NCBI GenBank assembly: GCA_947449695.1
Contig: CANFST010000004.1
Coordinates: forward strand, 22,555 to 86,554
DNA length: 64,000 nucleotides
Direction: 5' to 3'
From: Chitinophagales bacterium
GTDB taxonomy: Bacteria > Bacteroidota > Bacteroidia > Chitinophagales > CAIODY01
Part shown: positions 4,744-45,557 of the stretch, in pieces
Layout: the number at the start of each line of letters is the position of its first letter
Numbering within the stretch: the first letter of the stretch is position 1
Made by a program: the position numbers and the translations under genes
The notes under the pieces: generated by a model
What the model was told of the DNA's origin: nothing
What the model saw: the letters and a program-made list of their open reading frames with translations, nothing else
Database searches by the model: none

Positions 4744-7700
4744 ATTTCTTCATTGCTTGATATAACACTTCCTGAATTCTTGTGCGAATACTCAAGGTAA
4801 TAATTTTGTTATTCCCTGCTTCGGGATAAACACGATTACTTAAAAATACAAATACCAAATTATATTTAGGGTCAGCCCATGCACTTGTTCCAGTAAAACC
4901 TGTATGACCAAAAGTTTCAAGTGAAGCACTTTTGCAAACTGGTGAAGCTGCTTCTGGATTTGGTTCTTGCTTATCAAAACCTAAACCTCTTCTCGATACT
5001 GATGATTGTTTTGTTGTAAATTTATCAACTGTGAATGCTTTAAAATATCTCTTGCCATTTAGTTCGCCTTTATTACAAAGCATCTGCATCAACATAGCTA
5101 AATCCTTTGCATTGCTGAATAAGCCTGCATGACCTTGTATACCACCACACATAGCAGCACCTTGATCATGAACATACCCCCAAACTAATTGATGCCTGAA
5201 ATAATTATCTCTTTCTGTTGGCATTATTTCTTCTTTTTTAAAACCATGTTGCAATGGATTAAAACACATTGTTTTCAAATTCATCGGGTCGTAGAAATTT
5301 CGCTGAACGTAGTCTTCGACAGTTTCCTTTTTTAAAATTTTGTCGCAAATACGTTTCATGAAATATAAATCCAAATCACTGTAAACATATTTGCCAGGCG
5401 TTTTTACATCGCTTTTATAAATATCCTCCCACATTTTATCAATACATGCTGGGCTTTCACATAAATCTTTTGCTACCTGCAACGGATGCTCAGCATCTTG
5501 TTGAGTTGAAAAGTTTTCGTTCAGTTCACCCTTTGTATTAAAACAATTTTTCCAAAACGGAATAAAAGGCACCATCCCGGCCTGATGCAATAACATATCA
5601 CGAATAACTATTTTTTTCTTGTTTGTTTTTTTGGCTTCGGGCAAATAATCACCAATGGTTTTGTTAACATCCAATTTTCCTTCTTCATACAATTTCATAC
5701 AAGCCAAAGTGGTGCAGGCAATTTTTGTGATAGATGCCAAATCATATAAATTTTCATTCTTTACCTCCACACCATTTTCATAGGTTTGATGTCCAAATGA
5801 TTTTTCATAAATCACTTTCCCATCTTTTAATGCAATAATTTCACATCCTGGATAAGCTCTTGCGGCAATGCCTTCTAAAGCGATGGTATCAATTTTTTTC
5901 AATGATTGAATATCAAATCCAGCTGCAATTGCATTTTGCAAAGCTTCGCTTTTAATGTGTTTTTCTAAATGCGAATGCAACTCATTACCCATACCAAATT
6001 TATACACTGATGAAGCCGAAACAGGTAATTTTCCCTTTGTATTAATACTGTTTAATAAATAATTTGCTACTGCTGTTTGCGTAAATTGATTGTCTTCATA
6101 AGCTACAGCGATTTGTTTGCAATTATCAAAAAATTTTAAACTATAAGGATTGCCAAAAAGAACAACACTACAATTTTGCCTAGCTGAAAGTTGCTGAATG
6201 AATTTCTTTGCTGATGAGTTAATTCCATAATCTTTTGATGCAAATCGATTCATGTGATGCATTTCTACCCAGCAATAATCAATGTTTTGAAGCGAATCAA
6301 GCAATTGACTATAGGTTTCATCGCTTTCGTTGTTAGTGATTCTGAATAATTTTATAGATGAATTTTCGCTTAACATTTTTGAAGTAATGCTCATGGTATC
6401 ATTGCCAATACTGATTAATACAACTGATTCAGGCGCTTTAATTTTTTCTTCTCGATTGATACAAGTTAAAGCATTACAATATAAGCTTTTCAGTAATTCA
6501 GCTTTTTCTGTTCGATGCAAATCTTCTTGCAAATTTTGTATAACAATTGGCTGATAATGATTCAACCCTGCTTTGTATTTGTAGTATAAAATTTTACGAA
6601 CACGGTTATCAATTTCTTCTTGTGTAATTAAATTTTTAGATACAGCTTTTAAAATTTCATTGATGCCAGCTTCTAAATTCTGGCTAAATAAAATCATGTC
6701 GTTACCAGCCAAAAGTGCCATAACATCAGCAGTTGCCGATTCATAATTTTTTGTAACGCCATGCATATTCATTGCATCAGTAATTACCAACCCATTATAA
6801 TGTAACTCTGTTTTCAATAAATTTTGCACCAAATTTTGCGATAATGAAGCTGGAATTTTTTCATTTGGTTCTAATTGTGGAATCGCCAAATGCGCCACCA
6901 TTATGCTTGGCACTTTGGATACTATCATTGCTTTAAAAGGTTTCAACTCCAAAGAATCTAATCGCTCACGGCTAAAAGGCAATACTGGCAAGTCTTTATG
7001 TGAATCAACATCTGTATCGCCATGACCCGGAAAATGTTTGGCACAACTTAATATACCAGCTTTGTGCATACCATTCATATAGGCAATTGCTTTATTAGTA
7101 ACCATTTCAGCATTTTCACCAAATGACCTATCATTAATAATCGGATTGTTTGAATTGTTGTTCACATCTACTACTGGTGCAAAATTGAGTTGAATTCCCA
7201 ACCGCTTACATTCATCGCCAACGGCTTCGCCCATTTTAAAAATCAAAGAGTCATTTTGTAAAGCACCCAAGGTGAGTTGATGCGGATATTGCAACGTAGA
7301 ATCTATACGCATGGCTAATCCCCACTCACCATCCAAACCCACTAACAACGGAATTTTTGATAAATTTTGATACCGATTCAAAGCCACTGCATGGCGATAA
7401 GGTGTGCCCTGCATCATGATTATGCCGCCAATATTGTACTTTGAAATCATATCGGGCAATGATTTGCAATTAACTGAATCGTGGTTGGTCCAGGCTGGCA
7501 TCATAAACAACTGCCCAATGCGTTGGGTATCATTCATGCCTTGCATTTGTTGTTCAATCCATCGCAACGTATCGCCGCTGCCCATCACAGGAGTATGATA
7601 CGAAACCGCTTCCATAGCCATTTCTGGCGATTTAGTTTTTTTCTTTTTAGCAGATGAATTTGCTTTTTTTGAATGATGTTTTTTAGGTGAATGCGAATAA

Positions 7701-26563: not shown

Positions 26564-27691
26564 TTAATAATTTCCACTCAGCATAATAGGCATTATCAGC
26601 ATCAACAAGTTTTCGTTGGTGGCTTGTTGTTCGGGCACAACAATACCTGCACGTGATGGTGAACTCATTTCGAAACGAATATTATCACAGTTTAATGCCG
26701 AAAGCATATCAATCAGAAATTTTCCATTGAAGCCAATTTCTAAATCAACGCCGTTATAATTACAAACTAAAGTTTCATCAGCCTCGTTAGAAAAATCTAA
26801 ATCTTGTCCTGTAATATGCAATTGACTGCCCTTTAAATTAAATGCTACTTGATTAGTGGTTTTATTACTAAAAATACAAACCCGTTTTAACGCTCCCAAC
26901 AAATCATCTTTAGCAATGCTCAATACATTTGGATTTTCAGTTGGTATCACCGCTTCATAATCAGGATATTTCGCATCAATCAGTCTGCATACTAATTGAA
27001 TATTGCCACAATCGAAATAAGCATTGTTCTTGTCATAAGCTATTTGAGCTGGCGTTAAATCGTTGGGTAATATATTTTTTACAATGCCAATTGATTTACG
27101 AGGCACTATAAAATTAGCAGATTCCTCATGTTTCAAATCACTTCTTTTAATGCTTACCAAACGATGAGCATCCGTACTGACAAAATTGCATCCATCTTTA
27201 CCCAACTGGAAATATAATCCTGTCATTGCAGGGCGAAGTTCCTCTTGTCCTATTGCAAAAAAACAACTATTGATGATGTGTGCTAACTCCGATCCTGCAA
27301 TTGTGATGCCTTTAGTGCCCTCAGTTGCTTTAGGTATTTTAGGGAAGTTGTCACCATCTTCGCCGTTCAATTTATAAATTCCATTATCAGAAGTAATCTC
27401 TACCGAAAAGTTTTCTTCATCTACTTTAAAGGTAAGGGGCTGTTCGCTCAAATTTTTCAATACCTCCATCAATTGTTTGCCTTCGATAGCAACCTTAATT
27501 ACATCTTTGCATTCTACTTCTAAGCTAGTGACCATGCTTGTTTCCAAGTCGCTGCTGCAAAGCACTAAGTTATTTTTTTTAATATCGAATAAGAAATTAT
27601 CTAATATAGGCAATACTTTGTTGCCAGCTAATGCGCCGCTGATGCTTTGCAATTGTTTCAATAAGGCTGAAGTGGATACAATAAATTTCAT
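26564..27691 (-). CDS. dnaN: DNA polymerase III beta sliding clamp
   Basis: 375 aa. MKFIVSTSALLKQLQSISGAL, PRKSIGIVKNIL, VIPTENPN and the C-terminal LMLIMPIML are typical of DnaN. Confidence 0.92.
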   Translation of the reverse strand: MKFIVSTSALLKQLQSISGALAGNKVLPILDNFLFDIKKNNLVLCSSDLETSMVTSLEVECKDVIKVAIEGKQLMEVLKNLSEQPLTFKVDEENFSVEITSDNGIYKLNGEDGDNFPKIPKATEGTKGITIAGSELAHIINSCFFAIGQEELRPAMTGLYFQLGKDGCNFVSTDAHRLVSIKRSDLKHEESANFIVPRKSIGIVKNILPNDLTPAQIAYDKNNAYFDCGNIQLVCRLIDAKYPDYEAVIPTENPNVLSIAKDDLLGALKRVCIFSNKTTNQVAFNLKGSQLHITGQDLDFSNEADETLVCNYNGVDLEIGFNGKFLIDMLSALNCDNIRFEMSSPSRAGIVVPEQQATNENLLMLIMPIMLSGNY

Positions 27692-29417: not shown

Positions 29418-30656
29418 TTACTCTTTCACAAACTTAGCTGTATGCACAAAACCTTTTTCATCCGTAGCTTTTATAAAATAGATGCCGCTTGATAAATCAC
29501 TCACCTCTATTTGTATTGCATTTTCTAATCTACTCATCTTCAAATCTTCTAATTTTCTGCCTACCACATCATATACTTCTATTGTTTTTACTAATGACTG
29601 CTGATTGACTATTGTTAAATTGGTATTTGCTGGATTCGGATATACTTCCAACTGCCTATTGTTATTGGTTAATTGGTTGATGCCCACATTACTGACAATT
29701 ACTGTTACTGTGTCATAATAAGTAGTATTACAAATAGTGGATTGCAAAACATAAGTAGTGGTTTGCTGAGGTTGCACCCATATACCGCCTGTGTTTTGCT
29801 TAATAAGGCTACTGCCCACATACCAGTTATTTTGCACACCCGGCACTTGTTCTATACCTAAATACACACTATCACCTTTGGCTATGGTGGTATCCTTACC
29901 GGCGTAGGCACCGGCTTCAATGACAAATACATCGTCTATTAAATAACCACTGCCATATCCAGGATAACTTTGATTTATCAATATTGTATCTGTTAAAGAA
30001 TCTGAATGAAAATTACTAATAATAGCATATTTTTCGCTGCCATGAGCTTGATAAATACCAGCTATAGGTGTCCAGTTCATTGTATCTGTTATTACAGGAT
30101 TACCTTGCTTCATGATGTGTGATGGCAACTGAACTAAATCATGAAAATATTGTGTCCCACCATACGGACCAGCAGGTAAAGCTGTATCGCTTATGCTTAT
30201 GGCTATGTTATTACATGCAGTGTAATCAGAAAATAAATTAACATAAAAATAAACAATATAACAATTATTTGCTTTTAAAGTATCAGCAAAAGGTACTTGA
30301 ATATAATCTCTATAGTCAGCTCCTTTATTAAAATCATTAAACCACATACCAACCATTTTTTTTCCTGTTCTTGGGCATTGATAAGCTAAACCCGAAAAAA
30401 GCGGAGCTAAACATGATGAAGTTGAAGGAGCATCGGTATGAAAAATTTCTGCAAAGTTTGTAACTGGTGAATTCCAAGGTTTCGCCAAATGCATTCTCCC
30501 CCCCCAACATAATTCATTAAATGGGCTAGGAAAAGAATCAACAAGCTCAAAACTATAATTAGGAATAAGATTGGTTTGCGCTTTGCAGTTGACAGAATAA
30601 AATAAAAAAGCCAACAGCAACAGCTGCTGGCTTTTTTTAATAAAATTATTTATCAT
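29418..30656 (-). CDS. secreted protein with T9SS type A C-terminal sorting domain
   Basis: Signal peptide present. The C-terminal LEVYPNPANTNLTIV...SGIYFIKATDEKGFVHTAKFVKE is a T9SS CTD pattern. Confidence 0.7.
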   Translation of the reverse strand: MINNFIKKSQQLLLLAFLFYSVNCKAQTNLIPNYSFELVDSFPSPFNELCWGGRMHLAKPWNSPVTNFAEIFHTDAPSTSSCLAPLFSGLAYQCPRTGKKMVGMWFNDFNKGADYRDYIQVPFADTLKANNCYIVYFYVNLFSDYTACNNIAISISDTALPAGPYGGTQYFHDLVQLPSHIMKQGNPVITDTMNWTPIAGIYQAHGSEKYAIISNFHSDSLTDTILINQSYPGYGSGYLIDDVFVIEAGAYAGKDTTIAKGDSVYLGIEQVPGVQNNWYVGSSLIKQNTGGIWVQPQQTTTYVLQSTICNTTYYDTVTVIVSNVGINQLTNNNRQLEVYPNPANTNLTIVNQQSLVKTIEVYDVVGRKLEDLKMSRLENAIQIEVSDLSSGIYFIKATDEKGFVHTAKFVKE

Positions 30657-30753
30657 GTTGTATTACTATCTTTTTAAAACTTTTTTCATTATTGCTTGTA
30701 TTGGTCATACTTAATAAATAAGTACCGCTTTGCAAAGTACTTGTATTGCAGCC

Positions 30754-30814
30754 GTTGTCGGAGTTTGTCCTCCGACAACTTCCTTTGAATCGTTGGTGAA
30801 CAAACACCAACGAT
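30754..30814. repeat. two adjacent perfect 10-bp hairpins
   Basis: GTTGTCGGAG (30754-30763) pairs with CTCCGACAAC (30770-30779), loop TTTGTC. ATCGTTGGTG (30789-30798) pairs with CACCAACGAT (30805-30814), loop AACAAA. Confidence 0.9.
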
Positions 30815-30824
30815 GGCTGAACTT

Positions 30825-30987
30825 GTTTCCGTCAAGAAACATTTTGTTTCCACATGGAAACAACTTTTTTCCACATGGAAAACTTTCTTTTCCGCATGGA
30901 AAGATTTCTTTTCCGGATGGAAAAGTTTTATTTCCACCCGGAAACTTTTTGTTTCCGAACGCTAACAAGTTGTTTCCGAACGGAAAA
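30825..30987. repeat. tandem array of 8 units with an exact 21-nt period, each a TTTCC-N(4-6)-GGAAA dyad
   Basis: Unit starts are 30825, 30846, 30867, 30888, 30909, 30930, 30951 and 30972. In order the units read GTTTCCGTCAAGAAAC, GTTTCCACATGGAAAC, TTTTCCACATGGAAAA, TTTTCCGCATGGAAAG, TTTTCCGGATGGAAAA, ATTTCCACCCGGAAAC, GTTTCCGAACGCTAAC and GTTTCCGAACGGAAAA. Confidence 0.9.
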
Positions 30988-31004
30988 ATCACCCAGCTCG
31001 TCCT

Positions 31005-31057
31005 CCTCTGCCGCCGAGCCTTTGCGTTGCGGACGAGGATGCAGAGGCTTTTTGTTT
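31005..31057 (+). terminator. terminator-like GC-rich hairpin plus T-run on the plus strand, with no plus-strand gene upstream
   Basis: CCTCTGC (31005-31011) pairs with GCAGAGG (31041-31047), with an inner CCGC/GCGG pairing. CTTTTTGTTT follows at 31048-31057. Confidence 0.35.
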
Positions 31058-31252
31058 CTAACAAATTTATAATTTTTCATTCTTCTGGTCGGTATTTATT
31101 TTCGTCATAGATGAAATTCCACTTGCATCCTCGTTTCCTGCGCTCATATCGCTGCTACAAACGAGGCCGAGCTAGGAAAATTTGGCTCAGTTTAACTGCC
31201 ATTCTTTACTCGTTTTTTCACCTGCTTCAATTAATAAAATGACAGAAAAGTA

Positions 31253-32620
31253 TCAAAACAACAATTGATAAACCTGTTCCAATTTTGAACAAGTGATTAC
31301 TTCAATATTATATCTCGAGGTGTCTAATCCTTTTTTATTGTAAGATGAAATTACAATTTTTTCGAAGCCTAACTTATCAGCTTCGGCAATGCGTTGGTCT
31401 ATTTTATTTACAGCCCGTATTTCACCACTCAAGCCAACTTCGCCCACAAAACAAATGTTGGCAGCCAATGGTTTGTCTTCGTAACTACTTAATAATGCGC
31501 TACAAATTGCTAAATCTAAAGCTGGGTCATCAATCTTTAATCCGCCAGCTAGATTCACAAAAACATCTTTTGTTCCGAATGTAAATCCACCACGTTTTTC
31601 TAAAACAGCCAACAACATATTTAATCTTCGCAAATCAAAACCTGTTGCTGTGCGCTGCGGTGTGCTGAAATGCGTTTGCGTAACCAATGCTTGTGTTTCA
31701 ATCAACATTGGTCGTAGGCCTTCCATTGTTGCAGCGATTGCAATTCCACTCAATTGCTCTTCACGTTGTGTAATTAAAATTTCGCTTGGGTTATTTACCT
31801 GTCGCAAACCATTGGGTTGCATTTCATAAATGCCCAATTCACTGGTTGAACCAAATCTGTTTTTTAAAGTTCGTAAAATTCGGTAAGTATAATGTTGGTC
31901 GCCTTCAAACTGCAAAACCGTATCTACCATGTGTTCCAACACTTTTGGCCCAGCAATGCTACCATCTTTTGTAATATGCCCAATCAAAAAAACAGGCACA
32001 TTGGTTTCCTTTGCATAACGCTGCCATTCGCCTGTACACTCCCTAATTTGCGACACACTGCCCGGCGTTGATTCAATCAAATTGCTGTGCAAAGTTTGAA
32101 TAGAATCAATAATAATTACATCAGGCTGAATTTGTTCAAGTGCTTTAAATATATGCTGGGTGCAAGTTTCGGTGAGCAAATACATTTCTTGTTGCGATGA
32201 AATTCTATCAGCTCTCATTTTTATTTGCTGCTCACTTTCTTCACCGCTGATGTACAAAACCTTCTTGGGATGCAGTTGCAGAGCCAATTGCAAAAACAAA
32301 GTTGATTTGCCAATGCCCGGTTCGCCAGCCACTAAAACCAATGAACCTGGCACAATTCCACCGCCCAACACTCTGTTTAATTCAGCGTCGGGCGTAATTA
32401 ATTTGAATTCTAAACTCGGCACAATTTCATTCAAAGCCACAGGTTTGGCTATGGTGGCTGATTTCCGAACATCACTTTTCCATTCGTAAGGTTTTTGTTC
32501 TTTCGAAATTAATTCTTCCACAATCGTATTCCACTCACCACACGATGTGCAGCGCCCAACCCATTTAGAATAATTTGTGCCACAACTCTGGCAGCTATAA
32601 ACTGTTTTTGTTTTACTCAT
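31253..32620 (-). CDS. radA: DNA repair protein RadA/Sms
   Basis: N-terminal zinc finger CQSCGTNYSKWVGRCTSCGEW, Walker A GEPGIGKST, the KNRFG motif, and a Lon-like C-terminal domain. Confidence 0.92.
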   Translation of the reverse strand: MSKTKTVYSCQSCGTNYSKWVGRCTSCGEWNTIVEELISKEQKPYEWKSDVRKSATIAKPVALNEIVPSLEFKLITPDAELNRVLGGGIVPGSLVLVAGEPGIGKSTLFLQLALQLHPKKVLYISGEESEQQIKMRADRISSQQEMYLLTETCTQHIFKALEQIQPDVIIIDSIQTLHSNLIESTPGSVSQIRECTGEWQRYAKETNVPVFLIGHITKDGSIAGPKVLEHMVDTVLQFEGDQHYTYRILRTLKNRFGSTSELGIYEMQPNGLRQVNNPSEILITQREEQLSGIAIAATMEGLRPMLIETQALVTQTHFSTPQRTATGFDLRRLNMLLAVLEKRGGFTFGTKDVFVNLAGGLKIDDPALDLAICSALLSSYEDKPLAANICFVGEVGLSGEIRAVNKIDQRIAEADKLGFEKIVISSYNKKGLDTSRYNIEVITCSKLEQVYQLLF

Positions 32621-42680: not shown

Positions 42681-43640
42681 ATGAAAAAGTTTATATCTGT
42701 ATTAGCAGCATCGTTTTTGTTTGCCTCAGCCATTGCTCAAACCAATAATCAAGATGGTGATGTATATCCACCAAATGCTGAACCAGGGAAGTGTTACGCC
42801 AAATGCTTAAAGCCTGATGTATTTGAAACAGTTACTGAAAAGGTAATGATTGAACCTGAAAAAAAAGCGTTTCGTGTTATTCCAACCACTTATAAAAATG
42901 TTACTGAACAATTAATGGTAAAATCTGAAACTAAACGTTTGGAAATTATTCCAGCAGTTTATGAAACTCAAACTGAGCAAGTGAAAGTGAAAGATGAAAC
43001 AAAAAGAATTATAAATATTTCGGCTACTTACAAAACAGTTACTGAGCAAGTCTTGGTAAAATCTGAAGGACAAAAATGGGTAAAGAAAAAACAAACAGGT
43101 TGCTTAAGCGACAACCCTGATGATTGCATTATTATGTGTTTAGAAAAAACACCTGCTGAATATAAAACTGTTACTAAACAAGTTTTAGAAAATCCTGCTA
43201 CAACGAAGGAAGAAGTGATTCCTGCTGAATATAAAACTGTTACTAAAACTGTGGTTAAAACACCTGCAAGCACTAAAGAAATTGTGATTCCTGCCGAATA
43301 CAAAACGGTTATAAAACAAGTGGTAGATGTTGCAGCTCATACACAAGAAGTGATTACACCAGCTGAATATCAAACTGTTTCTAAAAGAGTTTTAAAAACA
43401 AAAGGTGGCTATAGTGAATGGAAAGAAATCGTTTGTGATAACAAAGTAAATACAGACATTGTTAGTCAAATACAAGCTGCATTAAAAAAGAAAGGTTATG
43501 ATATTGGTCCAAAAGGAGTTGATGGTGTTTTGGGCACAGATACAAAAGCGGCTTTAGTTAAGTATCAAAAAGATAATAGTTTGCCAGTTGGTAATTTGAA
43601 CATTGAAACCATGAAATCTTTAGGTATCAAATTCGATTAA
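42681..43640 (+). CDS. secreted repeat protein with C-terminal peptidoglycan-binding domain
   Basis: Signal peptide, then about 9 tandem ~19-aa repeats (IPAEYKTVTKQV......TKE.V). The C-terminal PG_binding_1-like sequence is LKKKGYDIGPKGVDGVLGTDTKAALVKYQKDNSLPVG. Confidence 0.65.
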   Translation: MKKFISVLAASFLFASAIAQTNNQDGDVYPPNAEPGKCYAKCLKPDVFETVTEKVMIEPEKKAFRVIPTTYKNVTEQLMVKSETKRLEIIPAVYETQTEQVKVKDETKRIINISATYKTVTEQVLVKSEGQKWVKKKQTGCLSDNPDDCIIMCLEKTPAEYKTVTKQVLENPATTKEEVIPAEYKTVTKTVVKTPASTKEIVIPAEYKTVIKQVVDVAAHTQEVITPAEYQTVSKRVLKTKGGYSEWKEIVCDNKVNTDIVSQIQAALKKKGYDIGPKGVDGVLGTDTKAALVKYQKDNSLPVGNLNIETMKSLGIKFD

Positions 43641-45132: not shown

Positions 45133-45154
45133 TTCAATTTAGAATATATACCAC

Positions 45155-45188
45155 AAAAAAAGGAGTGAAAATTTCACTCCTTTTTTTG
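45155..45188. terminator. bidirectional terminator between frr and ssrA
   Basis: AAAAAAAGGAGTGA-AAATT-TCACTCCTTTTTTT is a 7-bp stem flanked by A7 and T7. Confidence 0.65.
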
Positions 45189-45557
45189 TGGACTTGCCGG
45201 GAGTCGAACCCGGGTGCAGACAACGACACCATAAACTTTCTACATGTTTAGCTGACGCTTGATTTTCGATTATTGCAGGGTGCGTTAGCGAACCAACGCA
45301 ATAACTTAGCTGCTATAATTTTCGTTTGTTGCACACAGCGATGCAACAACTTATCTATTCATTGATAAAGTGCAGTCCAACCGCCGAAGAGCAGGCAATC
45401 AGAGGCACTATGGTGGTTAATCCTCTGGATTAAGCAGCCATTGCGAAAGAAGTTTCGCCATTTGAAAATTTGTGAAAGTTTAGTTTAACGGGCAATGCTT
45501 TCAACGCCCGACATGCTTATTTACAAAGAACATTGCTGTCAATTCCGGTACAAGCCC
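45189..45557 (-). ncRNA. ssrA: transfer-messenger RNA (tmRNA)
   Basis: The minus strand starts with 5' GGGCTTGTACCGGAATTGACAG and ends with GGTTCGACTCCCGGCAAGTCCA (T-arm plus acceptor). The acceptor pairing GGGCTTG/CAAGTCC includes a G3-U pair. The internal tag ORF GGC GAA ACT TCT TTC GCA ATG GCT GCT TAA encodes GETSFAMAA*. CCA is not encoded. Confidence 0.88.

What the first reader, a model, noticed from the sequence alone, without database searches (positions are those of the whole stretch)
30825..30987. Eight tandem units with an exact 21-nt period, each an imperfect palindrome TTTCC-N4-6-GGAAA
Unit starts (30825, 30846, 30867, 30888, 30909, 30930, 30951, 30972) are spaced by exactly 21 nt. 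Units 2-6 and 8 are 16-nt dyads (for example GTTTCCACATGGAAAC and TTTTCCGGATGGAAAA) separated by 5-nt T-rich spacers, and the units are diverged rather than identical. Twenty-one bp is about two helical turns, so as DNA all eight dyads face the same side, resembling an iteron or operator array for a dimeric binding protein. As RNA on either strand, each unit folds into a 5-6-bp stem with a tetraloop, giving a beads-on-a-string array. That layout is reminiscent of protein-titrating sRNAs. I know of no described Bacteroidota element with this architecture.
Basis: seen in the sequence. Interest (0 to 1): 0.7.

Follow-up and report, generated by a model that had tools for sequence, protein, structure and literature searches.

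The report
Phased array of eight DNA dyads
Between a DNA-repair gene and a secreted-protein gene of an uncultured Bacteroidota bacterium lie eight copies of a short mirror-image DNA word, spaced exactly two helical turns apart and kept intact by selection, which most likely form a docking platform for a still unknown DNA-binding protein.

Summary
There are eight units with an exact 21-nt period at 30825-30992. Six carry a perfect TTTCC-N4-GGAAA; chance expectation is 0.11 per window.

The array is non-coding. All six frames are open, but synonymous sites inside the arms never vary, although the loops and spacers are nearly saturated (56% pairwise difference against 7.5% in the arms). The arms show no covariation and the array has no indels. 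Selection therefore acts on the arm sequence and on the phase. That fits dimeric protein binding to double-stranded DNA better than RNA hairpins.

The array lies about 125-295 bp upstream of a candidate promoter of a T9SS cargo gene. It also lies downstream of a second, canonical -7 box.

Relatives do not conserve it. The closest radA loci lack it. A 67%-identical cargo homologue keeps a flanking 26-bp hairpin exactly but has an unrelated 42-nt array.

Similar 21-bp TTTCC/GGAAA arrays occur in intergenic DNA of eight phylum-level groups by record title. In Tannerella they carry a shared leader at unrelated loci, like the BrickBuilt minisatellite element.

Best reading: a phased operator-like DNA array, possibly the core of a dispersed minisatellite element. 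The binding protein is unknown. There is no Rfam or literature match.

The parts
30825..30992 (.). Array of eight 21-bp units. Consensus GTTTCCGCATGGAAACATTTT. Dyad arms occupy unit positions 2-6 and 11-15.
   Evidence: Deviations from consensus are 3/80 in the arms against 33/88 elsewhere (Fisher p = 3e-8). No indels.
30846..30950 (.). Units 2-6: five consecutive perfect TTTCC-N4-GGAAA dyads. Units 2 and 3 are perfect 7-2-7 inverted heptads.
30951..30971 (.). Unit 7, degenerate, with its right arm changed to GCTAA.
30749..30819 (.). Two perfect 10-bp-stem palindromes enclosed by CAGCC/GGCTG: hairpin A at 30754-30779 and hairpin B at 30789-30814. They are inverted paralogues with 4 compensatory stem differences and mutually complementary loops.
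   Evidence: I1, I21, I22. (-39 to -40 kcal/mol, z about -8 on both strands). Searches show them unique in the window. Searches show 30750-30779 identical 30/30 in L116.
30999..31041 (.). G+C-rich imperfect long dyad or hairpin on the radA side of the array.
   Evidence: -24.8 kcal/mol on the + strand, z = -2.0; weaker on the - strand. (56% G+C against 24-32% in the flanking spacer DNA).
31062..31069 (-). TAAATTTG, the only exact Bacteroidota -7 promoter box (TAnnTTTG) in the intergenic region, 413 nt upstream of the cargo ATG. It has no -33 TTG.
30706..30736 (-). Candidate proximal promoter of the cargo gene: TTTG (30736-30733), a 19-nt spacer, then TAAGTATG (30713-30706, one mismatch to TAnnTTTG). 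This would place the array at about -126 to -293.
   Evidence: The spacing rule is from general knowledge of Bacteroides promoters. Inferred, not shown.
29418..30656 (-). Downstream gene: a 412-aa secreted protein with a signal peptide and a T9SS C-terminal sorting domain.
   Evidence: Por_Secre_tail, 1.7e-15.
31253..32620 (-). Upstream gene: radA/sms.

Best explanation
The array is a non-coding DNA element made of eight dyad-symmetric recognition sites. Each site has half-sites TTTCC/GGAAA, extended to a 7-2-7 inverted heptad in the best units. The sites are spaced at exactly 21 bp, which is two helical turns, so all of them face one side of the double helix.

The most likely mechanism is as follows. 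Dimers of a sequence-specific DNA-binding protein occupy the sites cooperatively. They form a one-sided protein filament or a wrapped nucleoprotein complex in the control region of the downstream T9SS cargo gene. Relative to the candidate proximal promoter, the array lies at about -126 to -293, an upstream activating, silencing or insulating position. Relative to the distal -7 box, it lies at about +63 to +230, where it could act as a roadblock.

Shown:
- The array exists and is far beyond chance.
- It is not coding.
- Selection preserves the arm sequence and the phase, but not the loops or spacers.

Inferred:
- The selected property is protein binding to duplex DNA.
- The target is the cargo gene.

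Unknown: the binding protein.

The array may at the same time be the minisatellite core of a dispersed intergenic element of the BrickBuilt kind. The two readings do not exclude each other.
For: - Statistical reality.
- Arm deviations are 3/80 against 33/88 outside the arms (p = 3e-8). Pairwise difference is 7.5% against 56%.
- No arm pair covaries in any unit, whereas the neighbouring hairpins A and B differ by 4 compensatory pairs. The arms are therefore read as sequence, not merely as a helix.
- Seven intervals of exactly 21 bp persist despite near-saturated spacers.
- The related locus L116 has a different dyad array with a 42-bp period, again a whole number of helical turns.
- TAnnTTTG marks promoters in this window: 26 intergenic hits, most of them 5-110 nt upstream of a gene start. 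A near-consensus -33/-7 pair sits about 90 bp below the array.
- In 7 of 7 other Bacteroidota arrays with a recognisable -7 box, the array lies roughly 100-340 bp upstream of that box.
- Of 19 arrays of at least 3 units with both flanks called, 18 lie upstream of at least one gene and 1 lies between convergent genes.
- A two-unit version (TTTTCC-N4-GGAAAA, 21 bp apart) is conserved between a divergent XRE/cupin regulator gene and its neighbour in at least 8 alpha-proteobacterial genomes. That is a textbook operator position.
- In a Bacillota genome, seven identical units directly follow a GerE/LuxR-type regulator gene.
Against: - No regulator gene lies within about 15 kb, and no other TTTCC-N4-GGAAA site occurs in the 64-kb window. 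The site is not part of a visible regulon.
- The array is not conserved. Genomes with 90% and about 82% radA nucleotide identity lack it downstream of radA. The cargo homologue locus has a different array.
- The only perfect -7 box lies upstream of the array, so the array may be transcribed.
- Similar arrays in Tannerella behave like a dispersed repeat with a shared leader, inserted even between murE and mraY. That argues for a selfish element rather than a gene-specific operator.
- Nothing here shows protein binding.
Confidence: 0.45

Rival explanations
1. The array is the minisatellite core of a dispersed, MITE-like intergenic element, of the same kind as P. gingivalis BrickBuilt or PgRS. 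Replication slippage expands and contracts it. It persists or spreads for its own sake, and any effect on neighbouring genes is incidental. Hairpins A and B and the G+C-rich dyad would be its 'leader' and 'tail'.
For: - BrickBuilt has 23-nt tandem repeats with conserved and variable positions, leader and tail segments, and a strictly intergenic location. [quoted passage not shown]
- The Tannerella 21-bp TTTCC/GGAAA arrays share a conserved leader of about 60 nt at unrelated loci (neighbours).
- Several arrays occur per MAG, and several sit at contig ends.
- The window array is absent from the syntenic place in close relatives.
- The region is a G+C island in A+T-rich spacer DNA.
- L116 keeps the flanking hairpin but has a different array.
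Against: - No terminal inverted repeats or convincing target-site duplication were found. The 12-nt direct repeat at 30682/31073 (D4) is within chance by my estimate.
- The BrickBuilt/IS5-type TIR is at chance level in the window.
- The unit sequence is unrelated to the BrickBuilt unit AGAYCATARTATCCTCTCRTRTG.
- There is only one copy in 64 kb.
- Neutral slippage does not explain invariant arms beside saturated spacers. The element itself would still need a sequence-specific partner.
Confidence: 0.25
2. The array acts as RNA. It would be transcribed on the - strand from the -7 box at 31069, as a leader of about 400 nt for the cargo mRNA or as a separate sRNA. It would fold into eight short hairpins separated by A-rich linkers, followed by a three-way junction with kissing loops. 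This RNA would control mRNA stability or translation, or titrate an RNA-binding protein.
For: - The only exact TAnnTTTG in the intergenic region is on the - strand upstream of the array, and none is on the + strand.
- Each unit can fold (-3.5 to -8.6 kcal/mol).
- The whole region folds far better than shuffles (z = -8.9 and -9.4).
- Hairpins A and B show 4 compensatory differences and complementary loops.
- The region is a G+C island, as is typical of structured RNA in A+T-rich genomes.
- The spacers have a strand bias.
Against: - No Rfam family matches, even at E <= 10.
- Folding is equally good on both strands, as expected for any palindrome.
- The five arm pairs never covary, although the rest of the unit is saturated.
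- The loops vary and are not stable tetraloop types, and an exact 21-nt spacing is not needed for beads on a string.
- The minimum-free-energy fold pairs units with each other rather than forming separate hairpins.
- In L116 and in 7 of 7 other Bacteroidota arrays, the recognisable -7 box lies between the array and the gene, so those arrays are not in the leader.
- No intrinsic terminator was flagged after the array on the - strand.
Confidence: 0.15
3. The array is, or is the remnant of, a protein-coding heptad repeat. Candidates are the 50-aa ORF at 30813-30965 (+), which gives an amphipathic FSxWKxF repeat, and the 117-126-aa FPxG(K/N) ORFs on either strand.
For: - All six frames are open across most of the array.
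- The period is a multiple of 3.
- The ATG-started + strand ORF would form a neat amphipathic helix (my own reading).
Against: - Positions in the arms that would be synonymous in each frame never vary: TTT, GGA, TCC, AAA, TTC and GAA are the same in 7-8 of 8 units, while non-arm positions differ in 56% of pairs.
- No homologue was found for the peptide and there is no Pfam hit.
- The long ORFs start only with TTG.
- The ATG lies inside the 10-bp stem of hairpin B.
- In L116 the conserved ATGGCTGA opens a 6-codon ORF.
- In other genomes the open frame differs from array to array, and many arrays have stops in every FPxG frame.
Confidence: 0.03
4. The array is a replication or partition site: plasmid-type iterons, part of oriC (dnaN lies 3 kb away), or a ParB/Noc-type centromere-like cluster.
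For: - The 21-22-bp phasing is typical of iterons.
- TTTTCCACA in units 2 and 3 resembles a DnaA box.
- The half-site ATTTCC resembles the Noc binding site, and TGTTTC...GAAACA resembles parS (general knowledge).
- dnaN is at 26564-27691.
Against: - DnaA-box matches are at or below chance in the window, and only one lies in the array.
- No canonical parS was found.
- No rep, parA or parB gene lies nearby.
- There is no similarity to plasmids or phages, and only 2 pattern hits in 2.9 million viral contigs.
- There is no skew switch at the site.
- The array is absent from close relatives.
- Iterons are normally direct repeats, not dyads.
Confidence: 0.04

Closest known systems
BrickBuilt and MITEPgRS minisatellite elements of Porphyromonas gingivalis (Klein et al. 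2015, PMC4596501)
   Same: They occur in Bacteroidota and are strictly intergenic. They are head-to-tail repeats of about 20-40 nt (23 and 41 nt) with conserved and variable positions within the unit, flanked by non-repeated segments. They are predicted to form stem-loops, have no Rfam match, and often lie next to T9SS CTD genes. The Tannerella arrays found here have the same leader-plus-array layout.
   Different: The unit sequence is unrelated. The period is 21 bp, not 23 or 41 bp. The window units are dyads. No IS5-type TIRs are present. No second copy is seen in the window. Mobility was not shown.
Tandem operators on one helical face. Examples: ArgR ARG boxes (18-bp dyads 3 bp apart, which gives 21 bp centre to centre) and BvgA~P arrays on the fha and ptx promoters (inverted heptads TTTCCTA, one dimer per 22 bp). 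From general knowledge.
   Same: The dyad geometry is 5-N4-5 or 7-2-7. The centre-to-centre distance is two helical turns. Several adjacent sites lie upstream of a promoter. The half-site TTTCC resembles the BvgA heptad.
   Different: Eight sites is far more than the usual two to six. No ArgR-, NarL- or FixJ-type gene lies nearby. No binding has been shown. The arginine-box and BvgA consensus sequences do not match as a whole.
Plasmid iterons and repeat centromeres, such as F sopC (12 x 43 bp, each with a 16-bp dyad). From general knowledge.
   Same: They are regular arrays of protein-binding repeats, and sopC units contain a dyad bound by a dimer.
   Different: The context here is chromosomal, with no rep or par genes. 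There is no similarity to plasmids or phages. Iterons are direct repeats.
Protein-titrating sRNAs such as CsrB, RsmY and RsmZ. From general knowledge.
   Same: They contain many short hairpins in a row.
   Different: In those RNAs the conserved GGA lies in loops and linkers, and the stems covary. Here the loops vary and the stems are invariant. There is no Rfam hit, no terminator, and transcription is unproven.
REP/BIME arrays of enterobacteria and pseudomonads (for example PMC3733652)
   Same: They are short extragenic palindromes, sometimes in regular arrays, and they bind proteins such as gyrase and IHF.
   Different: REPs are high-copy, alternate in orientation, carry a GTAG or CGTC tag, and mostly sit in 3' regions. 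Here there is one locus per 64 kb, the units are head-to-tail, and the array lies upstream of a gene.

Membership tests
BrickBuilt-type MITE with internal minisatellite | Head-to-tail repeats of about 20-40 nt without spacers, in an intergenic location. | tested here: met
BrickBuilt-type MITE with internal minisatellite | Sequence similarity of the unit (AGAYCATARTATCCTCTCRTRTG) and IS5-type TIRs (GAGACCTTTGCA). | tested here: not met
   The unit is unrelated. TIR-like matches number 49 against 56 expected by chance, and none bounds the element properly.
BrickBuilt-type MITE with internal minisatellite | Many copies per genome that share leader and tail segments. | tested here: inconclusive
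   Only 64 kb of the genome is available, and it holds one copy. L116 shares hairpin A but not the array. This feature is met for the Tannerella arrays.
Phased operator array for a dimeric DNA-binding protein | Dyad-symmetric sites with conserved half-sites and a free central spacer. | tested here: met
   arms 3/80 deviating, N4 and spacers 33/88.
Phased operator array for a dimeric DNA-binding protein | Spacing equal to an integral number of helical turns. | tested here: met
   Seven intervals of 21 bp. L116 has 42 bp.
Phased operator array for a dimeric DNA-binding protein | Position in a promoter region. | tested here: inconclusive
   The array lies upstream of a near-consensus -33/-7 pair but downstream of the only exact -7 box. 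No transcription start data are available.
Phased operator array for a dimeric DNA-binding protein | A cognate protein that binds the sites. | not testable with these tools
   No regulator gene lies within about 15 kb. Testing needs a pull-down or EMSA.
Plasmid or chromosomal replication iterons / oriC | An adjacent initiator gene, or a DnaA-box cluster with an A+T-rich unwinding element. | tested here: not met
Structured non-coding RNA (any Rfam family; CsrB/RsmZ-like) | A match to a covariance model, or covariation that supports the helices. | tested here: not met
   There is no hit above chance. There is no covariation in the five arm pairs across eight units.
Structured non-coding RNA (any Rfam family; CsrB/RsmZ-like) | Its own promoter and terminator on one strand. 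| tested here: inconclusive
   There is a -7 box on the - strand at 31069, but no terminator after the array on that strand. Weak hairpin-plus-U features are seen only on the + strand.
Heptad-repeat protein-coding sequence | Substitutions concentrated at synonymous positions, a start codon, and homologues. | tested here: not met

The most novel reading that the evidence does not exclude
The window array would be one member of a widespread and so far undescribed class of bacterial cis-elements: arrays of TTTCC-N4-GGAAA dyads phased at 21 bp. Arrays of 4-8 exact units were found in intergenic DNA of Bacteroidota, Verrucomicrobiota, Planctomycetota, Spirochaetota, Actinomycetota, Acidobacteriota, Bacillota and a Thiotrichales MAG. 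They would load a conserved family of dimeric DNA-binding proteins, for example a NarL/FixJ-type or a ParB/Noc-like clamp, into one-sided filaments. They would then act as enhancer-, silencer- or insulator-like modules that can move between promoters.
Probability: 0.12. Interest if true: 0.85.

Novelty: new variant of a known kind. Interest (0 to 1): 0.58.

Why it matters
Arrays of eight or more phased dyad sites under purifying selection are unusual in bacterial chromosomes. If a protein polymerises on them, this would be a compact and portable way to build large nucleoprotein structures next to promoters.

The same dyad and period recur in distant phyla. Together with the leader-plus-array organisation in Tannerella, this suggests a family of mobile regulatory or architectural modules that annotation pipelines ignore and that break metagenome assemblies.

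For Bacteroidota, the link to T9SS cargo genes echoes BrickBuilt in P. gingivalis. Such elements could help explain the rapid rewiring of secreted-protein expression.

If the array proves to be only a selfish minisatellite, it is still a clean example of selection acting on a repeat's internal dyad.

Tried and rejected
- **Rfam:** gathering thresholds on the whole window, and E <= 10 on 30500-31300. Only tmRNA elsewhere and chance-level hits.
- **Peptide homology:** search for the 50-aa ORF found nothing. Pfam on three small ORFs found nothing.
- **Synteny through radA:** the source genome is not in the collection. Relatives with 98%, 90% and 79% RadA identity have other genes downstream of radA and no array.
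- **Synteny through the cargo protein:** only L116 was informative. P0122 was not retrievable. L117, L125 and L126 have no array.
- **Metagenome scan for hairpin A:** it returned only unrelated G+C-rich contigs. In those, the palindrome lies in an ORF (ELSESELRQL). I briefly took the shared 'SAIVG...LSExxLRQ' reading for protein homology. I rejected it because the palindrome gives the same peptide on both strands, and because the 18-nt shared piece (window 30803-30820) lies in the opposite orientation relative to hairpin A in L116.
- **BLAST against plasmids and phages:** no hit.
- **Viral contig pattern scan:** 2 hits.
- **oriC and parS:** rejected.
- **BrickBuilt TIRs:** at chance level.
- **Similarity between the window array and the L116 array:** none beyond shuffles.
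- **Shared neighbour gene among arrays:** none found.
- **Regulator gene near the window array:** none found.
- **Literature searches for the motif and for 21-bp repeats in Bacteroidetes:** nothing specific.
- **Strand assignment by folding energy:** uninformative.

Full report
**Observation**

The sequence shows eight head-to-tail units starting at 30825, 30846, 30867, 30888, 30909, 30930, 30951 and 30972. The repeat finder gives five successive spacings of 21. Tandem Repeats Finder reports a period of 21, with 42 and 63 as multiples. The pattern TTTCC-N4-GGAAA occurs six times in the 64-kb window, always in this array. Dinucleotide-preserving shuffles give a mean of 0.11 and never more than 1. 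Allowing one mismatch adds unit 1 but nothing meaningful elsewhere. Units 2, 3 and 5 are perfect 16-nt dyads. Units 4, 6 and 8 are perfect 14-nt dyads. Unit 1 is TTTC-N6-GAAA. Unit 7 has lost its right arm. Units 2 and 3 are perfect 7-2-7 inverted heptads (GTTTCCA-CA-TGGAAAC).

**Setting**

The window comes from an uncultured Bacteroidota bacterium. Its RadA protein is 98% identical (90% at the DNA level) to that of MAG GCA_046051225.1, and the next named relatives are Chitinophaga. The array lies in a 596-bp gap between two minus-strand genes. One is radA (31253-32620). The other encodes a 412-aa secreted protein with a type IX secretion sorting domain (29418-30656).

The array is flanked on the cargo side by two perfect 10-bp-stem palindromes, hairpin A (30754-30779) and hairpin B (30789-30814), enclosed by CAGCC/GGCTG. 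On the radA side it is flanked by a G+C-rich imperfect dyad (30999-41). The stretch 30700-31050 has 40-56% G+C, whereas the rest of the spacer has 24-32%. Hairpins A and B are unique in the window.

**Not coding**

All six frames are open over most of the array, which yields tempting heptads: FSxWKxF from an ATG at 30813, and FPxG(K/N)xx on both strands. The pattern of variation rules them out. The ten arm positions deviate from consensus at 3 of 80 sites, the other eleven positions at 33 of 88 (Fisher p = 3e-8). Pairwise difference is 7.5% in the arms and 56% elsewhere. In each frame the arms include positions that would be synonymous (TTT, GGA, TCC, AAA, TTC, GAA). These never vary, although unconstrained positions are close to saturation.

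Other evidence agrees:
- The peptide has no homologue and no Pfam hit.
- The long ORFs start only with TTG.
- The ATG lies inside the stem of hairpin B.
- The conserved ATGGCTGA in the related locus opens a six-codon ORF.
- In other genomes the open frame changes from array to array.

**DNA or RNA**

The same numbers show that the array is not a decaying neutral minisatellite. Selection keeps the arm sequence and the exact phase, with no indel across seven intervals, while the loops and spacers are free. If only pairing mattered, arms this old should covary. The neighbouring hairpins A and B do exactly that, with four compensatory differences in ten pairs. The array arms never do.

RNA-binding proteins usually read loops, and here the loops vary and are not stable tetraloop types. 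Folding is equally good on both strands. The minimum-energy fold pairs units with each other rather than forming beads on a string. No Rfam family matches, even at E <= 10.

Invariant half-sites, a free centre and spacing of two helical turns are what a dimeric protein bound to duplex DNA requires. From general knowledge, this is the geometry of tandem ARG boxes (21 bp centre to centre) and of BvgA~P arrays (inverted TTTCCTA heptads, one dimer per 22 bp).

**Promoters**

The Bacteroidota -7 box TAnnTTTG is a good promoter marker in this window. There are 26 hits in about 5.9 kb of intergenic DNA, and most lie 5-110 nt upstream of a start codon in the right orientation. In the radA-cargo spacer the only exact box is TAAATTTG at 31069-31062 on the minus strand, 413 nt upstream of the cargo ATG, and it has no -33 TTG. 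No exact box is on the plus strand.

A one-mismatch scan finds TTTG (30736-30733), a 19-nt spacer and TAAGTATG (30713-30706) about 50 nt upstream of the ATG. If this proximal promoter is used, the array lies at about -126 to -293, and hairpins A and B lie at about -67 and -102. If the distal box is used, the array is transcribed, at about +63 to +230. I cannot decide between these without transcript data.

In seven other Bacteroidota loci with such arrays and a recognisable -7 box, the array always lies roughly 100-340 bp upstream of the box.

**Relatives**

The array is not conserved by position. In the genome with 90% radA DNA identity, radA is followed by a convergent SMC gene after 75 nt. 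More distant relatives have yet other neighbours.

The best cargo homologue (67% identity) lies on a 4-kb lake metagenome contig, L116. Its upstream region keeps 30 of 30 nt of hairpin A plus AGCC, collinear with the window's minus strand. It also keeps 17 of 18 nt of the right arm of hairpin B plus GGCTGA, but in the opposite relative orientation. Instead of the 21-nt array it has at least 3.6 copies of a 42-nt unit with a different dyad (GAAACAC-AAAA-GTGTTTT), running into the contig end. The two arrays share no similarity beyond shuffles.

So the flanking palindrome is strongly constrained, while the array is replaceable. What persists is a dyad array with a whole number of helical turns.

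A metagenome scan for hairpin A found only unrelated G+C-rich contigs.

**The wider picture**

A scan of 185,579 species genomes for two units 21 bp apart gave 108 loci. They are heterogeneous.

- *Two-unit sites.* These include likely operators. In at least 8 alpha-proteobacterial genomes, TTTTCC-N4-GGAAAA pairs sit between a divergent XRE/cupin regulator gene and an FAD oxidoreductase gene. They also include terminator-like hairpin pairs and large palindromes in Desulfobacterota.
- *Longer arrays.* Twenty-one loci carry 4-8 exact units, with spacings almost always 21, 42 or 63. By record title they come from Tannerellaceae, Prevotellaceae, Segatella baroniae, Verrucomicrobiota, Planctomycetota, Treponema, Bifidobacteriaceae, Pyrinomonadaceae, a Bacillota genome and a Thiotrichales MAG.
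- *Coding status and position.* These arrays are mostly outside long ORFs and have no consistently open frame. They lie upstream of at least one gene in 18 of 19 cases where both flanks could be called (crude ORF calling).
- *Neighbours.* The flanking genes are unrelated housekeeping genes: pstS, leuA, murE|mraY, fumarase, nifU, dapA and porP. Occasionally there is a regulator: GerE-type in L010, XRE in L056, and a sigma-54 activator in L060.
- *Tannerella.* The arrays share a conserved leader of about 60 nt at unrelated loci in three MAGs. That is the leader-plus-minisatellite layout of BrickBuilt.

I searched only for this one dyad. L116 and Parapedobacter L088 show that other dyads also form 21- or 42-nt arrays.

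**Comparison with known things**

- *BrickBuilt / MITEPgRS.* This is the closest described kind in the phylum. It has intergenic 23- and 41-nt minisatellites with leader and tail, conserved and variable unit positions, and predicted stem-loops. It has no Rfam match and a frequent association with T9SS CTD genes (PMC4596501). Membership fails on unit sequence and on TIRs, and copy number cannot be tested in 64 kb.
- *Iterons and oriC.* These fail. There is no initiator gene, DnaA boxes are at chance level, there is no parS, and there is no similarity to plasmids or phages.
- *Titrating sRNAs.* These differ in which positions are conserved.
- *Mechanism.* The best analogue is a phased operator array, but no binding protein is known and no regulator is encoded within about 15 kb.

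**Verdict**

The array is a selected, non-coding, phased dyad array.

| Reading | My probability |
|---|---|
| Works as DNA, as a one-sided docking platform for a dimeric protein in the control region of the cargo gene | about 0.45 |
| Primarily the core of a dispersed BrickBuilt-like minisatellite element (not exclusive of the first) | about 0.25 |
| RNA leader or sRNA | about 0.15 |
| Coding | about 0.03 |
| Replication or partition site | about 0.04 |

It is a new variant of known kinds rather than a new category. Its recurrence with the same dyad and period in distant phyla is unexplained and worth following up.

Noticed in passing
L071 6860-7130, L075 2780-2930, L082 3835-3985, L084 1807-1957, L101 5853-6003, L064 about 6150-6360: 21-bp TTTCC-N4-GGAAA arrays in three termite-gut Tannerella MAGs share a conserved leader of about 60 nt (...GTAAA..TTTTAAGGATAAAAAC..GTTTGTACAGGGCAAATTTCC). 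They lie at unrelated loci: between murE and mraY, upstream of porP/sprF, and upstream of leuA. This is a dispersed leader-plus-minisatellite element with BrickBuilt-like architecture.
   Followed up: partly
L116 2-151: Upstream of the 67%-identical cargo homologue is a 42-nt tandem repeat of at least 3.6 copies, cut by the contig end. Its dyad GAAACAC-AAAA-GTGTTTT is unrelated to the window's unit. The contig also carries hairpin A, conserved 30/30.
   Followed up: yes
L004, L023, L034, L055, L058, L059, L067, L083, L105, L107 (positions): Two TTTTCC-N4-GGAAAA dyads 21 bp apart are conserved in many alpha-proteobacterial genera. They lie between a divergent XRE-HTH/cupin regulator gene and a DAO-family FAD oxidoreductase gene. 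This is probably that regulator's operator.
   Followed up: partly
L074 3055-3330 and L098 6125-6345: Orthologous arrays in two Tannerellaceae MAGs lie between a TonB-dependent receptor/lipoprotein pair and pstS. They differ in number of units and show a 42-nt higher-order alternation. Next to the pstS -7 box, direct repeats TAACAAAAYSG with an 11-nt period look like the real Pho box.
   Followed up: partly
L088 6400-7376 (Parapedobacter composti): About 1 kb of non-coding DNA is filled with 21-nt-period repeats of several unit types, including CCGTACGG cores and TTTCCATATGGAAA. It lies between two minus-strand genes.
   Followed up: no
L010 6318-6457: Seven identical 21-bp units (TATTTCCGTTAGGAAAAAACG) begin 7 nt after the stop of a 490-aa GerE/LuxR-type regulator gene in a Bacillota genome.
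   Followed up: partly
L119, L120, L122, L123, L124 (JGI metagenome contigs of 1.4-1.8 kb): G+C-rich contigs carry the stems of hairpin A inside a 233-234-aa ORF (…GELSESELRQLYL…). They also carry ACCAACAATGG a few bases away, as in L116. No Pfam family matches. The resemblance to the window is unexplained and probably coincidental.
   Followed up: partly
window 30728-30737 and 20992, 43919, 59496: The palindrome TTTGCAAA recurs in the window. The copy at 30728-30737 supplies the candidate -33 TTTG of the cargo gene.
   Followed up: no
window 45186-45557 (-) and 45151-45191: A tmRNA gene (114 bits) lies next to a perfect 20-bp-stem hairpin.
   Followed up: no
window 43152-43327: A 69-nt tandem repeat of 2.6 copies lies inside the ORF 42681-43640, which has a peptidoglycan-binding domain. 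It is probably a coding repeat.
   Followed up: no
window 31033-31043 and 31124-31134: An 11-nt perfect inverted repeat (ACGAGGATGCA / TGCATCCTCGT) brackets the A+T-rich stretch that holds the distal -7 box. Its fold has a z-score of about -4 on both strands.
   Followed up: no
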